From: Podarcis gaigeae
Lineage: Eukaryota
NCBI GenBank assembly: GCA_964106915.2
Contig: OZ066929.1
Strand: one strand, 5' to 3'
Length of the DNA: 64,000 bases
Every line of letters begins with the position of its first letter. Within the stretch, counting starts at the first letter, position 1. A program made the translations under genes and the position numbers. Under the pieces are notes generated by a model. The model had not been told where the DNA came from, did not search any database, and was given only the letters and a program-made list of their open reading frames with translations. Below are positions 6,977 to 46,170 of this stretch, one piece after another.

Positions 6977-7985
6977 ACGGTAAATTGGGAGTTCTGGAAG
7001 ATGACATTCTCTTTTTCCAGCTGTGCCTGCTTTTTATATAGGCATCTCACAGGATCTACACATGCTGATCCAGCAAATCTGAGGTTTGCATAGACACAGA
7101 CACACAACCTCCTTGCTAGTTCTTGAAACTTTCTGATACTTGAATGCTAATTCATAGATAATTGCAATTTCATAGTCAGTGCTACACACCAATAGTCCTG
7201 ATCCGATACAAGAAGTGATGCCACATAGCCAAATAAGCAGTGCACTGCACAATAATGACATGGTGCTGGAAATTTTGTTTTTAAAAGTGGTAGGTTAATT
7301 GCAGCTATGTTTTCTTAAGATTGTTGTATGCCGCCTAGATCCTTGGGGAAATGCCCAATAAATCTCATCACTAAATACAAGAAGTGGTGGCAGCACATCT
7401 ACCTTTAATGTCCGCAAAAGACACAGTCCAGAGAAGAAGTAGTTGTGCCACATCGCAGCCGTCTTCAGTCACACTTTGCTGGTGCCGTTGCAATAATATA
7501 AATGTCACAGCTATAACCTGGCTGTATCGATCCCGCACAGCGGCTGGGATATCTGTGCTGGGATTAATATGTTGGCATCTCCAAGGAGTGGGGGGGAGGA
7601 ATAGGTAAAGCCCATCTGACAGTTTCAATTAAGGGAGCGTGAAAAGCTATTTGCGTCAGAGACTCTGTCTTCCCAGGGAGAGCGGAGGGCAGCCCGAAGG
7701 CGGCCTGTCTGTACGCTTGGATCTGGCTAAGTGAAGTGATCGGCTACACGAAGTGATGGCCAACAGACCGATGCCTCCTCCACTGCCGTCTCTAGCTGAC
7801 GAACCCCTCAGCCTTGTTTCCTTTGTCCGCCAGCTGCCTCAACAAGGATCCGACCTGACAGTCAGAAACGAGCTCTCGGGATTCTGTTCACTGAGCCCAA
7901 ATTGGCAAATCAGCAGATGCTGAGACACACCCACTGGGTGTAGGAAAACACCAAGCTGCAAAGCCTAAGACAAGGCATGCCAAGC

Positions 7986-35863: not shown

Positions 35864-36816
35864 AGATTTAGGCTAGATCCATGCACTGCAATTAAATTCT
35901 GCGGGACTCTATCAACACCAAGGAAAAAAGGGCTTTTCCTAGAGAAAATGGGCTTGACAGTCTGGATCCAAGCATCAGAAAACAAGCTCAAATGTGTGAA
36001 GACTGGAATCTAAGGGGGAAACCAATGTGTCTTGTTTACATTGGTTCAGAAGTGATCCATTGTCACCTGGACTGGAAGAGAGGGTCTCTGGAACAGACAG
36101 ACCTCTTGAGTTCCCTCCCCCACCTGAAAGCAGCCTTAAGGAAATCCACCACTAGCCCAACACAAGTGAGTTGGTTGTACAATTTCATAGGAGACCAGTC
36201 AATGCCACTCCGGGTTCCTGAGTGGGCCATGTTGCAGCCATCATGGGTCTGAGCCAGGGAATATGCTGTGAATCCATCTATGCCAAGACCATTTCTTCCA
36301 AGAATGTTCCAGGTATGGTGGTGCACAACCTGCAAGAAGCATCCGGTTGGACCTAGGAGGACAACAGCTGAACACCTTAGAGAAGAAGAGTGGCTTTACA
36401 TGAGAAGTCAGAAATAAACCTTGCTCTTATGGAATAGCACCCATGTCAGCAAACAAAGGATAGAGGCAGAGGCCCAGCACCTTGCAGAAAATGATCCCAG
36501 AGATTGTTCTGAGGCTCATTACCAGAACTGCTCTCATTACAGGGCAGGGGGGAGGACACAGAGGCCTCAATGTGCACTGAAGCAAGGGCAGTGAGCATTC
36601 TCTCTCTCTGGCATCACCTGTGGTTGCAGCGCATTATCACGCAAGGCCTTGCGAGGAGGCTGGAACAAAGTCAAAACTGCAAGACTCAGCCAGAGGAAGG
36701 AAGGTAATTTCTGCCAAGGGAGGCTAACTGTCTTACAAGGTAAACAAAGGTCAAACGCACTCCAGACTGTCATATGCAAAGTGCACTCAAGCTGCCTCAT
36801 CAACGCTCTCCTCCTT

Positions 36817-37325
36817 TTTTTTTCTTTTTTTAAACACAAAGAAAAATTATTTCTTCAAATACCTAATTCTCATTACCTTGATAACTGACTTCCTCGAATC
36901 CCCTCTTACTGAATCTCATTATATCACCTTTATAGAAGGTCTCCAAATTCATATTTCTACTAATATTAACTCCTTTCATTTACTAACCTCTTCTCCTTTA
37001 TTAATTTTCAAATCCTTAGTATTTACTACCACATATTCTTATTCTACCCCTAAGCCTATTTATCATTTCCAAGAATTTTCTATTTAATTTATATCGCAAT
37101 ATTTAGCTAAATATTCTTTAAATTTCTTCCAATTCTCTTGTGTCTCCTCCTCTTTCTGGTTGCGGATTATTCTAGTCAGGTCGGCCAGCTCCAAAAAACC
37201 TAACATCTTCATCTGCCATTCTTCATTGTTGGTATTTCTTGTGATTTCCAGTTTTTGATTAAAAAAAGTCTTGCCACTGTAGTGGCATACAAAAACAGTT
37301 TAGCATCTTTTGGGGGGTATTTCCA
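36817..37325 (-). mobile_element. L1-clade ORF2 C-terminal remnant plus 3' UTR and poly(A) (family A)
   Basis: Reverse complement reads KDAKLFLYATTVARLFLIKNWKSQEIPT..EWQMKMLGFLELADLTRIIRNQKEEETQENWKKFKEYL, with a frameshift; T-tract at about 36815-36831. Confidence 0.75.
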
Positions 37326-37599
37326 GTCCTGGTATCTCTGGGAAATCTAGAAGAGCAGACCCCATACTAACCAATCCACATCTGGGAGTTTCAATGGCAT
37401 CATTGGGTTCTGTCAACGAAAGTGGGGTTTAGTGGGCAAGATGAGTATGGGAGGGTATACTTGTATGCCATCATAAATTGCAACTTCAGTGTCCAGCCTT
37501 TTTGGGAGAGGGGAGATGGCAGGCAACTTTATGAGTCAAGGCCTTTCCTTCGCTCCCGCAAAGGATTGTGGGAAGAGAGCTCCTTCGTTCGACTCACCT

Positions 37600-38749
37600 C
37601 TTTCTCTTTTCTTTTTAATATTTTTTATTAAGGATTTTCTTGTTTTACAGAAGTGTAGTGCCTCATATTTTTTCTTCTTCTTCCATGTAACGTTTTTACA
37701 AATCCGTTCCATTTGTTGAGGCATTAGGGGGAGAAGAAAAAAGAAATAAAAAAGAAAGGGGGTGGAGAGAGGGAAGATGGATGGGGGTGGGGTCGGGTGG
37801 CGGTGTTTCTATTATGTTTAATGTATGTAGAGTTTGGTGTCAGCGTTGCTTGTGTTGTTCACTTGTGTTCCTTTGGTGGTGAGAGAGGTTGGGGTTGGCT
37901 TAGGGTGTGATTGTTTGCTTGTGATTGGCTGTGGTGATCTTTGTTTTCGTGTGTGAGTGAGCTGGGTGGGTGTTTTGGATCAGGTTAGCCATATTGATTT
38001 GTATGCTGTTGGTGGATTAATGTCATTGTCCTGTTGGGCTGTGTATGTGATAAAGGGGAGCCATACCGGGGTGAAGGCGTCTTCTTCTGTTTGTCCCCAT
38101 GTCAGTTTCAGTTTATTAGTTAATTTTTCTAGTAGGGCTGTTTCCCATACTATTTGGTACCATTGGTCCATGCTTACTCCTGACAGGTCTCTCCAGTGTC
38201 TGGTTATGATGTTTCTGGCTGCTGAGAGCAGGTGGGTTATGAGTTCTTTGTGGTGTAAATGGGCATTGTTGTCTTGGAAGATGTTTAGTAGGGCCAATTC
38301 TGGGATGATGTCTATTACTTGCTTAGTTGTTTTACATATTTCTTGTATGGCTGTTGTCCAGAATAGTTGAATTTTGGGACACTCCCACCACATGTGGAGG
38401 TATGTGCCTGTGGAGGTGCACCCTCTCCAGCATTTTGGTGAGGTTCCTGGGTGTATTAGCGCTAGTTTCCTTGGTGTTAGGTACCACCTGTAGGTGAGTT
38501 TCAGTGTGAGTTCTTTTCTTTTCGTTGATATGGATTTAAAGGGGGGTTTAGACCACATTCTGGTCCATTGAGTGGGGTTAATCTCATAGCCTATGTCATT
38601 CTCCCATTGTTTTTTGATTGCGTCTAGGGGATTTGCGGGATTTTGGAGTAGTATTTTGTATATTGCGGATACCGTCCCTTTACCGTTTCCCTTTGTTGTT
38701 AGGAGGAGGTTTTCGAAGGTTGTCAGGGGCCTAGTCACACAGACCATGC
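37600..38749 (-). mobile_element. Young 5'-truncated L1-clade LINE (family B): intact ORF2 C-terminus, 3' UTR, poly(A)
   Basis: ORF 37980-38831 contains WYLTPRKL and CWRGCTSTGTYLHMWWECP (cysteine-rich L1 domain). AATAAA on the minus strand at 37624-37629 followed by an A-rich tail. The first ~27 aa of the computed ORF are flanking DNA. Confidence 0.92.
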
Positions 38750-41700
38750 TCAACGCTCTCCTCCTTAACAAAGGGCTGCAATTTGTCAAATGGGGGACCT
38801 TCTGAACAGCCAGTTTCTTTTCTCCACACACTCCTATCTCAAAGACAGTAATTCACATTAAAGAGAATAGATGAGCTACACAGTAGGAACTGAACTACCA
38901 GCTTCCTAAGTGGACAGGACGTGGCTTGGAGAACTGAACCCCTTCTTCCAGCTCAAGCTTGGAGGCCCAAGGGGATGCTAAATGCAGCTTCCTCTCTCTG
39001 CCTTAGCTGCAACAGCCACCACCAGCATGGACTGGGCCTGCAGAATCTACCATGATCCAAATCTGAAGACAGGCCAAATATCAGGATACTTCCACATGCA
39101 ATCCCAGTAGAAAACCAGCTGGTTCCCATTAGAACTATTCCCCCACCCATTTATTATAATAAAATATTAATTAAAGAAGAAGAAGAGCCATCCCTTCACC
39201 CAGGCAGGAGGTGCCTGACAACAAAAACTGCATTAAAGAACAGGCTCAGAGGGGAGAATGGGGTTTGAGGAGGCTAAAACATAGCAAAGGAGCAACAGGA
39301 CTACAAGAACAAGCCCCAGTTATCCAGAGCAAGCTTTGTGCCCTGGAAGGAACCACACCCAACTGCTCCTGTACACAAACCAACACACACCCAGCTATGA
39401 CAGCTGTATTTCCATCTCCACTCCCTACATCCTGGTTCCTGCCTCTGACACACAGATCTGCCGGGCCAAGGGCACCACCGCCTACCCATATGATGTGGAT
39501 GTTGCTGATACCACCATTACCCCCCCCTTGCTTATTTGTACAGCTCCTCCTTAGGCATACAGAGAGGCATAAAAGCCTGCAGTGAATGTTGGCACTTCAT
39601 TCTCTCCCAGATGATGTTAGAAAGCACTTGCTGCTCCACCTGTGTGGAGCTAGAGAGGGGAAGCATCAGGAGGAGGAGAGGGCAATGATTGATGTTCCAC
39701 GGAAGGTGGGGTCCAACTTGCACCAAAGTCTACAAGTTCTGTTAGCTTTCAGTGAATCTGAAAGCGCTAGGACAGATCTGGAGATTGACCAAACCATTCA
39801 ACCCCTCATTCAAAAAGCACATGAAGTTAGGTTAGCAGCGAGAGGAGATAAATGGAAGATTTGCATCCAGAGAAGGAAGGGGCAGAAGTTGATGTTTATG
39901 AAATATTACTCTGAAGCACCGATAACTAAAGACTTGCTTCACTTACAGTGATAGCTCCTAGATGCAGCACAGAAGCACAATCACGCGCTCCTCCCTCCAT
40001 TTTATATGAGCAGCTGTCTCATTCCCCCATTCGGTTCTTCTTCAGACATAAGAATTGAATTGGAATCACCAATTCAGAAAGAGATACCCTTTCTCGCTTT
40101 TAAAGTTTTCACCTAGAAGCACATTCAAAACACAAACACATGCACACACATGATCCAGCCCACACCAAGAACCAGGAGAATATGAGATCAGCTTTGGTGA
40201 GGCTTTGCCACCAAAGTTTTCTCATACATGGAGAAAATGGACAGCTGCTAAGGGAGTGATGCTGAAACTAGGTTGGCAATACAAAGGCAGAGAAAGAACA
40301 ATTGGCGGAAGGAGCCAAAAAGGGAAAGGGGCAGATGTCACACATGCCTCTGGGCTCCGGCAACACACCCCTGGCCAAGCACACACTCATCCAATGGACA
40401 TTCAATGACAACACGCAGCCAGCGATTCTGCTGGTGTCACCAATTTTCAAAGCCTGCAGCAGAACATGCCTCCTAACTGCAACTGAAATCTACATTTCAG
40501 AGAGAAGCTCTCCCCACCCCCGCCCTGCATCAGCACCAGTCTGAAAAGAGGGTCACTCTGCTGGGATGTAACGCAAGCACCAGCACAAAGTGTTAGGTGC
40601 CAGTAAGAGAAAAAGAGAACAGTCACCCCGACACGTCACCTTGTTCTCAGGTCACATCTGTCCCTGCAGGCTATCAGCCAACAAAACCCAAACCCTAAAC
40701 TGTATTGTGCTTTCAGGATGAACACCTTCACAACAAGCAGATTTTGCATGAAAAGCTTTAAAGAGCAAGGGAGGGAAACAAGCTATATAAAGCCATACAG
40801 CAAACACCCCAGAATTCCAAGGTGCCGCTCCATTTGGAAATGTTGCAAAAGGTTTCATGCTTTGTACACAAAATGCAGTTCTCCACAAGGAAGCAAGAGC
40901 ACAATTTCTGCAACGTATTACCAAAGCTCAAAATGAAAGTGCTGCCATCCATGGCTTTCACCTGGTGAAAATCCTTTGCTCAGGGGGCAGCAAGGTTTTC
41001 ATGGTCCAGGGGAACAAGACTTTCGTTTGGAGGCTAAACTGTGTTCGAAGGGTCTTGTGCTACCTTAAAAATGTTAACAAATTAAGATAAAAGCTTGCAG
41101 GGACTAGAGCCCATTTCATAAAAGGGAAGTTTGGCCAAGGCCTCCCAGCAAACGGACTCTCAGCAGAACCGTCAGGCCCCCAGAAGCCTAGGTGCGATGC
41201 TGCTGTGCCTCAGCCATGAGGCCACTCCACATGTTCTCTCCTTTCCTTCTTCAGCAGCAGCATCTAATAGCAGGTGGCCCTACCAGCCCTACTGCCAGCC
41301 AAGCCCACAGAGAGAAGGAAAATTAAGAAACAAGCAGAGCTACCAAGGATCACCAGGAGTCAAGCACCAAGCAGCTGGCTAAGCACCTTTTAATGTGCTG
41401 CTGCCCCATGAACAAACTTTCCGCTGAATTTATTTCACTTTCCTACACATGAGAATGGCAGGAGCTTACGTGAATGGATGGAAATTCCACCAGACTTGGC
41501 TGGCACTTCCCAAAGTCATCCACTTCCCCCCTCCCATAGAAAAGAACTGTGCCACAAGCACTTTGGATTAGCCCAGCTGCTGCTGCTACTGCTGCTGTCC
41601 CTCCTACACACTCAAAGTGTTGTCAGGATCATTTTTCATGGAAGGGACAGGGGAATAAGAGGCACAAGTGTTAACAACTCTAAAGTCCACAGGCCTGCTG

Positions 41701-45364: not shown

Positions 45365-46170
45365 ATTCGATGTGGTCGGAATGTAGAAAAATCCAGCCTT
45401 TCCGGAATTTGATACTTCAAGAAATGAATAAAATAGCAATTGGAAGTCAAACCAGAATTAGCTTTATTAGATATATTTCAAGGCAACAATCTGGAAATGC
45501 ATAATAAAGAATTAATAAGCCATTTATTACAAGCAGCGAGACGCAACATAACCTAAGATACTGGAAATACCTTTCTGGCACAAAGAAAGACAACTGGTGC
45601 AAAACAGTTTCAGAAACAGCTCTCCTTGAGAGATTAACAAATAAACTATATGGTTGACATGCAGACAGATCAAGAAATATGGCTTTACCCTGGTGTGGTT
45701 TAGTTTTATAACATTGCCAAGATTCCAGAAAATGCACAACCACAACCCCATCATTTGGCTCAATCTGGTTGATCTAAATTTAAATTTAAACATAAATTAT
45801 TATATTCACTATGAACCCCCCTCCCACATTCATCATGGGTAACATAAGAGGGAAAATGACTATTATTCATACTCAATCTAAACACAACCACAAGGGCTCC
45901 TGATTAGGCGTTTAACTATGCAATGTTGAATGTTATCTGCTAACTCTTTTCTATCCTGTTTCCCCTTCGTTATTGTTATTGTTTTTATTTAAACCACCCC
46001 ATGAACCAAGAACTTGTACACTGACCATTAACAATTAGCCATATGCTGTAGATATTGCTGCCTATTTATTATGCTATTATTGTGATGTACAAAAGACATG
46101 AGAAGACTTGGTCTATTTATTCATAGCATTTATTATTCCTATGTTCCTGGTTTATAAGATCCAATAAAAG
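45365..46170 (+). mobile_element. Older L1-clade fragment related to family B
   Basis: PELALLDIFQGNNLEMHNKELISHLL..AARRNIT..ETALLERLTNKL aligns by eye to the ORF at 37980-38749; frameshifted; AATAAA near 46164. Confidence 0.85.

What the first reader, a model, noticed from the sequence alone, without database searches (positions are those of the whole stretch)
36800..38766. Composite 1.9-kb L1 insertion with a perfect 17-bp TSD: candidate L1 3' transduction in a lizard
Seen: TCAACGCTCTCCTCCTT occurs at 36800-36816 and 38750-38766. The right copy is followed by AA (TT/AA, like an L1 endonuclease site) and the left copy by a T-tract. Between them, read on the minus strand, lie a young L1-B 3' end with its own AATAAA and A-tail, about 270 bp of unrelated sequence, an older L1-A remnant and a second poly(A). 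L1-B has no TSD of its own. Inference: a source L1-B read through its poly(A) site and mobilised about 780 bp of downstream flank. This is well known in mammals and, to my knowledge, little documented in squamates.
Basis: partly seen in the sequence, partly recalled or inferred. Interest (0 to 1): 0.72.

Follow-up and report, generated by a model that had tools for sequence, protein, structure and literature searches.

The report
Parentless L1 transduction in a lizard
A lizard LINE-1 jumping gene landed here together with about 780 bases copied from an intron of the proSAAS neuropeptide gene elsewhere in the genome, most likely because a parent copy that is now missing from that intron read past its own end; the process is well known in mammals, and such cargo would mark where lost parent copies once sat.

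Summary
Observation confirmed. The 780-nt cargo (spacer plus old L1-A) has one other copy, on contig C30, 96.6% identical. It lies antisense in the last intron of proSAAS and starts 15 nt from the splice acceptor. The insert also has a 14-nt twin-priming inversion with 4-nt microhomology to the TSD, which ties L1-B to the same event. Among 63 other L1-B copies, 3 carry transductions and 3 carry 5' inversions. All 3 traceable donors, this one included, are empty. Best reading (0.85): 3' transduction from a full-length L1-B allele that never fixed, a 'parentless' transduction as in dogs (24 of 27). The source element is inferred, never seen; a template switch is the main rival (0.10). Four organisms (four runs, one study) carry the insertion; the empty allele was not seen. 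Eight searches found no squamate report. The scan has a related BovB note from this genome. Verdict: known mechanism, new clade.

The parts
36800..36816 (.). Target-site duplication, copy at the 3' (tail) end of the insertion, 17 bp
   Evidence: family TSDs are mostly 15-18 bp (30 of 41)
36817..36831 (-). Second poly(A) tail, not templated by the donor, which continues into a GU-rich tract
36850..36855 (-). Likely poly(A) signal used, AAGAAA (a variant hexamer, recalled), 18 nt upstream of the cut; the donor now has AATAAA here, probably a later change
   Evidence: (18 of 18 other L1-A copies share the window base)
36832..37335 (-). Old L1-A 3' fragment (ORF2 end and part of the 3' UTR), carried as cargo; 97% to the C30 copy, at most 91% to other copies
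37336..37349 (-). Copy of L1-A's own upstream TSD; at the donor both copies flank L1-A (L002 1752 and 2376)
37350..37608 (-). Single-copy proSAAS (PCSK1N) last-intron DNA, antisense, starting at position -15 of the splice acceptor; includes a branch-point-like CTCAC (37593-37597, + strand; motif recalled) and half of the pyrimidine tract
37609..37629 (-). L1-B's own AATAAA (37624-37629) and short A-rich tail, the read-through point
37630..38735 (-). 5'-truncated L1-B body (from position 7285 of an 8424-nt full-length copy): last 250 codons of ORF2, still open, and the 3' UTR
38736..38749 (+). 14-nt inverted L1-B piece (positions 6996-7009 of the full-length copy); 271 nt are missing between it and the body; twin-priming structure
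38750..38753 (.). 4-nt microhomology shared by the TSD end and the inverted L1-B piece (positions 7010-7013), the inferred second priming site
38750..38766 (.). Target-site duplication, copy at the 5' end of the insertion; followed by AA (minus strand TT/AAGG nick site)

Best explanation
This is a single L1 insertion whose 3' part is a copy of proSAAS intron DNA from contig C30, most likely made by 3' transduction from a full-length L1-B parent that once sat in that intron and is absent from this assembly. Steps: (1, inferred) A full-length 8.4-kb L1-B inserted antisense into the pyrimidine tract of proSAAS's last intron, 14/15 nt from the acceptor, on one haplotype. (2, inferred) Its transcript ran past the L1-B poly(A) signal through 273 nt of intron and 504 nt of an older L1-A, and was cut and tailed in L1-A's 3' UTR. 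(3, shown by structure) The RNA was copied into C28 with a 17-bp TSD. The second target end primed internally on the same L1-B RNA through 4 matching bases, leaving a 14-nt inversion and a 271-nt deletion. (4, inferred) The short offspring spread and is shared by four organisms, while the long parent allele was lost by selection or drift.
For: Donor found, single copy, 24 substitutions and 3 indels in 787 aligned bases. L1-A has its own TSD at the donor, so the spacer plus L1-A unit pre-existed there. The A-tail is untemplated and lies between a hexamer 18 nt upstream and a GU-rich tract downstream. The twin-priming microhomology joins L1-B to the same TSD, which argues for one event; chance of the 18-mer within the element is about 2e-7. 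The donor junction scores like an L1-B target: 4.9 bits, rank 29 of 39 among real sites, top 0.8% of donor positions. The family transduces: 3 of 44 other TSD-bearing copies have a distal TSD after a second AATAAA and A-tail. Both other traceable donors are also empty and score 2.9 and 4.9 bits. Older-subfamily copies are all short: 0 of 11 reach 6 kb against 9 of 32 younger ones, Fisher p=0.08; lengths differ, Mann-Whitney p=0.011. Donor branch (5 of 511) and L1-B branch (0.92%) give a similar age. Parentless transductions are the rule in dogs, 24 of 27 (PMC13141329, passages). Long LINEs are under purifying selection in Anolis (PMC5389967, passages).
Against: The source element was never seen, and none of the 3 traceable transductions has a living parent as a positive control. 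No sibling carries the same cargo. The target-site score is partly circular: A's next to a poly(A) tail are ambiguous, and a microhomology-guided template switch predicts an A-rich junction too. The signal at the time was probably AAGAAA, not AATAAA, and a canonical AATAAA about 170 nt upstream was bypassed. The cargo's window branch carries 10 of 511 derived changes against about 10 of 1113 on L1-B, a twofold excess that is not significant (p=0.09). The L1-B sample is the top of three similarity searches (40 scored of 2897, 1281 and 2039 candidates), not random, so it cannot show that full-length older copies are absent.
Confidence: 0.85

Rival explanations
1. Template switch or RNA join with no parent at C30: L1 reverse transcriptase started on an antisense proSAAS-intron RNA tailed in L1-A, reached the pyrimidine tract, and its T-rich cDNA end re-primed on the poly(A) tail of an unrelated L1-B RNA.
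For: The donor has no L1-B. The junction is an A-rich microhomology. Template switching by lizard LINEs is documented for U6 (PMC4476161, passages). An earlier scan note reports a likely template jump in a BovB copy of this genome (not checked).
Against: The chimeras in the passages read place the cellular RNA at the 5' side of L1, not the 3' side. It needs an antisense intronic transcript for which there is no evidence, and the same again for two other non-exonic donors. 5' inversion is described as nearly exclusive to L1 copied in cis (PMC2912911, passages). The bases just upstream of all three junctions fit the family's Y/A target pattern, a weak non-circular signal.
Confidence: 0.1
2. Serial insertions: a retrocopy of spacer plus L1-A landed first and made the 17-bp TSD; L1-B later inserted exactly at its 5' edge without a TSD.
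For: The cargo looks somewhat more diverged than L1-B (10 of 511 against about 0.9%, p=0.09).
Against: L1-B has no TSD of its own, and its inverted 5' piece shares 4 nt with the very end of the outer TSD. All four organisms examined have L1-B at the right junction.
Confidence: 0.03
3. Same transduction, but the parent had fixed at C30 and was later removed exactly by recombination between its TSDs.
For: It leaves the same empty donor sequence.
Against: It would have to happen at 3 of 3 donors. Precise excision is rare (recalled).
Confidence: 0.02

Closest known systems
Parentless L1 3' transductions in dogs (PMC13141329, passages read)
   Same: 5'-truncated L1, internal tail, unique flank, second poly(A), one TSD; donor traceable but with no adjacent L1 (24 of 27 there, 3 of 3 here).
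   Different: The dog cases are dimorphic young insertions whose parents are thought to still segregate. This one is shared by four organisms about 1% apart, so the parent is probably extinct. The host is a lacertid lizard and the L1 family is 8.4 kb long.
Human L1 3' transduction (about 15% of full-length L1 as quoted in PMC13141329; about 25% of tumour insertions, PMC13009371, abstract start in listing)
   Same: Read-through of the L1 poly(A) signal and use of a downstream signal.
   Different: Rate here 3 of 44 TSD-bearing copies (95% interval 1-19%), non-random sample; no living source traced.
L1 5' inversion by twin priming (model as given in PMC2912911, passages; Ostertag and Kazazian 2001 not read)
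   Same: Inverted piece abuts the 5' TSD, microhomology at that junction, deletion at the inversion point.
   Different: The inversion is only 14 nt and is combined with a transduction; it is seen in a lizard L1 family (4 of 64 copies).
U6/LINE and mRNA/L1 chimeras made by template switch, ligation or splicing (PMC4476161, PMC13174262, passages)
   Same: Two unrelated RNA-derived parts inside one TSD.
   Different: There the foreign RNA lies 5' of L1. Here it lies 3' of L1's own tail and is unspliced intron DNA.
Lizard L1 clade 1 (PMC5381506, passages)
   Same: The 5' end of full-length L1-B matches the clade's GACTTCCGG...ATGGCG start; long 5' UTR; APE plus RT ORF2.
   Different: 8.4 kb against 5.2-6.8 kb for Anolis L1, with about 740 nt between ORF1 and ORF2, where clade 1 is said to have little or none. 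No tree against named families was built.

Membership tests
L1 3' transduction | L1 3' end and cargo enclosed by one TSD | tested here: met
   17-bp TSD
L1 3' transduction | Cargo in sense orientation after L1's own poly(A) signal and tail, ending in a second untemplated poly(A) | tested here: met
L1 3' transduction | Cargo maps as one unspliced block to a donor locus elsewhere | tested here: met
   C30:36957681-36958460, 96.6%
L1 3' transduction | Poly(A) signal 10-30 nt before the second tail | tested here: inconclusive
   AAGAAA in the copy and AATAAA in the donor at 18 nt; polarity suggests the variant was the one used
L1 3' transduction | Source L1 directly upstream of the cargo on the donor haplotype at the time of the event | tested here: inconclusive
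   Absent from the one assembled haplotype; other haplotypes not resolved; absence is expected for parentless cases
L1 3' transduction | Empty pre-insertion allele with one copy of the TSD | tested here: inconclusive
   The four closest organisms carry the insertion; no empty-allele joint among the 15 of 58 joints shown; more distant organisms not examined
Twin-primed 5' inversion | Inverted L1 piece at the 5' TSD, from upstream of the truncation point | tested here: met
   positions 6996-7009 against body start 7285
Twin-primed 5' inversion | Microhomology between target end and internal priming site | tested here: met
   4 nt; 2 nt in L066
L1 clade LINE (L1-B) | ORF1 plus ORF2 with APE endonuclease and reverse transcriptase, poly(A) tail, variable TSD | tested here: met
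   355-aa ORF1 (no Pfam hit) and 1287-aa ORF2 with PF03372 and PF00078 in a full-length copy; TSDs 10-19 bp
L1 clade LINE (L1-B) | Reverse transcriptase groups with L1 rather than Tx1 or other clades in a tree | not tested
   Assignment rests on structure and on the clade-1 5' motif
Template-switch chimera | 3' part derives from an independent transcript | tested here: inconclusive

The most novel reading that the evidence does not exclude
A lizard L1 family uses the full mammalian toolkit (3' transduction in several percent of copies, twin-primed inversions), and nearly all its transductions are parentless because full-length parents are purged. The cargoes are then a genome-wide map of extinct source elements, including one that sat in the proSAAS splice-acceptor tract. 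That map would directly test the turnover and purifying-selection model for L1 in non-mammalian vertebrates.
Probability: 0.55. Interest if true: 0.62.

Novelty: new member of a known kind. Interest (0 to 1): 0.45.

Why it matters
Transduction and twin priming are usually discussed as mammalian L1 traits. Seeing both in one lacertid family suggests they are older properties of the L1 machinery, and that L1 copies host DNA between loci in squamates too. Because cargo outlasts its parent, parentless transductions record where full-length elements once sat. Comparing those sites with surviving insertions would test whether selection removes long L1s by place (near splice sites, in genes) or by length alone. 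The single locus has no known function: no Pfam domain was found in the 174 reading frames scanned around it.

Tried and rejected
Source L1-B at the donor: none within the 25 kb read; the upstream DNA is single copy. Sibling transductions: none, 2 hits for a 24-mer with up to 2 mismatches. First guess that the GC-rich donor flank was a mobile or viral relic: wrong, it is the last exon of proSAAS. First reading that the donor's AATAAA was the signal used: revised, it is probably a later change. L018 as a transduction: rejected, no A-tail and no donor. Donor of L128's 33-nt cargo: not traceable, the sequence is in a 385-copy repeat; 0 of 12 fetched copies had L1-B nearby. 16 of 64 L1-B loci gave no usable TSD and 3 had their 5' end off the stretch; they are left out of the 3-of-44 figure (3 of 60 with the 16). 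Host gene at the landing site: no convincing Pfam hit in 80 of 110 and 94 of 107 frames scanned (one weak DUF7546 match below cut-off). Expression: no RNA holder listed. Logan contigs could not phase donor and copy in relatives. Literature: eight searches listed no paper reporting L1 3' transduction or twin priming in squamates. I opened passages of eight papers, no supplements; listed papers such as PMC6007223 and PMC8232201 were not opened; most subscription papers are outside the library. Kojima and Okada 2009 is not held; I recall that it found 5'-inverted retrocopies only in mammals, unverified. A word search of earlier scan notes found nothing.
Full report
Observation. The 17-bp repeat is exact at 36800-36816 and 38750-38766. 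Read on the minus strand, the insert has 14 extra bases, an L1 ORF2 end that is still open for 250 codons with its 3' UTR, AATAAA and a short A-rich tail, then 273 nt of non-L1 DNA, a second and decayed L1 ORF2 end, and a 15-nt A-tail. The first L1 (L1-B) belongs to a large family, 2897 candidates with 96-98% identity among the 39 other scored hits. The second (L1-A) belongs to an older family whose other copies are at most 91% identical.

Donor. The spacer has one other copy in the 1.5-Gb assembly, on C30; a 24-mer with two mismatches allowed also gives only these two places. The match covers spacer and L1-A as one block, with 24 substitutions and 3 indels in 787 bases. At C30, L1-A is a complete separate insertion with its own 14-bp TSD, one copy of which travelled with the cargo. 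The copy stops inside L1-A's 3' UTR, where the donor continues into a GU-rich tract, and an untemplated A-tail begins. The hexamer 18 nt upstream is AAGAAA in the copy and in 18 of 18 other L1-A copies at that base, and AATAAA only in the donor, so the variant was probably the signal used. An RNA intermediate follows from the tail and the TSD.

What the donor is. The opposite strand encodes proSAAS. Pfam PF07259 matches two exons (E 2e-14 and 8e-11). The closest protein is a Lacerta agilis proSAAS at 98%, so the host is a lacertid. Homologues show the two exons abut at residues 216/217. The cargo begins at position -15 of the last intron's acceptor, inside the pyrimidine tract, and runs antisense into the intron.

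The missing parent. No L1-B lies upstream of the cargo at C30; the upstream 941 nt are single copy. A 9-base target model from 39 L1-B TSDs gives pyrimidine at -1 in 35 of 39 and A at +1 in 33 of 39. The donor junction scores 4.9 bits, rank 29 of 39 among real sites and in the top 0.8% of donor positions. Part of this is circular, because A's beside a tail are ambiguous.

One event. The first 14 bases of the insert are L1-B in reverse, from positions 6996-7009 of an 8424-nt full-length copy; the body starts at 7285. The next four L1 bases equal the last four bases of the TSD. This is the twin-priming structure described in PMC2912911 (passages). It shows that the template RNA was longer than the insert, and it ties L1-B's 5' end to the same TSD, against serial insertion.

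Family context. I examined 64 distinct L1-B loci taken from three searches (extended). 41 have an adjacent TSD, 4 have a distal TSD after a second A-tail, 16 gave no usable TSD and 3 ran off the stretch. The three other transductions are L043 (848 nt, 15-bp TSD), L163 (93 nt, 17-bp TSD) and L128 (33 nt, on a full-length element); each has AATAAA about 20 nt before the tail. Without the window this is 3 of 44 TSD-bearing copies (95% interval 1-19%) or 3 of 60. L043's donor on C9 (98.9%) and L163's on C25 (94.8%) have no L1-B in the DNA fetched upstream (about 1.1 kb and 1.5 kb); L128's cargo lies in a 385-copy repeat and cannot be traced. Three other copies have 5' inversions (L066, L154, L132). 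The sample is similarity-ranked, not random.

Age. The window's L1-B groups with an older subfamily (support 0.98) and has a terminal branch of 0.92%. In the L1-A part, 5 of 511 changes fall on the donor branch and 10 of 511 on the copy's branch; the excess over L1-B is not significant (p=0.09). Contigs of four coded organisms from one study bridge the right junction, and two of them also the left. One of these runs may be the assembly's own sample. Their flanks differ from the window by about 1%, so the insertion predates their split. No empty allele appeared among the joints shown; more distant organisms were not examined. Among copies found by 3'-end queries, 0 of 11 older-subfamily copies reach 6 kb (longest 1.6 kb) against 9 of 32 younger ones (Fisher p=0.08; Mann-Whitney on length p=0.011). 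This fits loss of long copies with time but is a small, biased sample.

Mechanism. Best reading (0.85): a full-length L1-B on one haplotype of the proSAAS intron read through its own signal, was tailed in L1-A, and produced this twin-primed, truncated offspring; the parent allele was later lost. Shown: donor, tail, TSD, inversion, sharing among relatives. Inferred: the parent, the read-through, and why it was lost. Whether the parent harmed splicing is untested; a 15-nt TSD could have left the branch point and tract next to the exon, and the two other empty donors show that loss needs no special gene. Rival (0.10): template switch from an antisense intron RNA onto an L1-B tail; it predicts the same junction but needs three unrecorded transcripts and the reverse order of the chimeras described in PMC4476161 and PMC13174262 (passages). 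Serial insertion (0.03) and exact excision of a fixed parent (0.02) fit poorly.

Comparison and novelty. Parentless transductions are known: 24 of 27 in a dog comparison (PMC13141329, passages). PMC5381506 mentions 3' transduction for mammalian L1 in the passage read and notes AATAAA ends in all species. Eight searches listed no squamate report of L1 transduction or twin priming; the library lacks most subscription papers and I saw no supplements, where such cases could be listed. An earlier scan note describes a twin-primed BovB copy in this genome (unchecked). Verdict: a real and well-resolved case, a new member of a known kind, whose value lies in the clade and in the testable map of lost parents. 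Interest 0.45.

Noticed in passing
window 38747-37983 (minus strand): The 14-nt inversion supplies an ATG in a good start context, in frame with the last 250 codons of ORF2, giving an open 254-codon frame. Probably incidental; no promoter is known.
   Followed up: no
window 37593-37632 (+ strand): The captured branch-point-like motif and half pyrimidine tract now run into L1-B's T-tract and an AG at 37631-37632, a possible new cryptic acceptor if the + strand is transcribed. An exon-like stretch with canonical ends lies upstream at about 36630-36703; it is unverified.
   Followed up: no
L139 and other full-length copies (e.g. G000:C2:121.06-121.07 Mb): Full-length L1-B is 8.4 kb, longer than the 5.2-6.8 kb given for Anolis L1, with about 740 nt between ORF1 and ORF2; 11 of 13 extended copies reach the 5' end.
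   Followed up: partly
L043 (G000:C2:62.85 Mb) with donor L090 (C9:75.865 Mb): Second parentless L1-B transduction, 848 nt, 15-bp TSD, 98.9% to an empty donor.
   Followed up: yes
L163 (G000:C24:20.96 Mb) with donor L193 (C25:2.7876 Mb): Third parentless transduction, 93 nt, 17-bp TSD; the donor has a short tandem duplication of about 30 bases, 46 bases apart, just upstream of the junction.
   Followed up: yes
L128 (G000:C3:76.34 Mb): Full-length L1-B with a 33-nt cargo from a 385-copy repeat whose copies often come in pairs 6-7 kb apart, like LTRs; the parent probably sat in such a repeat.
   Followed up: partly
L066, L154, L132: L1-B copies with 5' inversions of 792, 289 and at least 645 nt.
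   Followed up: partly
window 37318-37161: 5 of the 10 changes on the copy's L1-A branch are G to A on the L1 sense strand, 4 outside CpG; possibly cDNA editing, too few to test.
   Followed up: no
G000:C32:24.8-26.9 Mb: At least six L1-B matches of equal length and score lie within 2 Mb, suggesting a segmental array.
   Followed up: no
window 45452-45714: Another, much older L1 fragment, 67% identical to L1-B ORF2.
   Followed up: no
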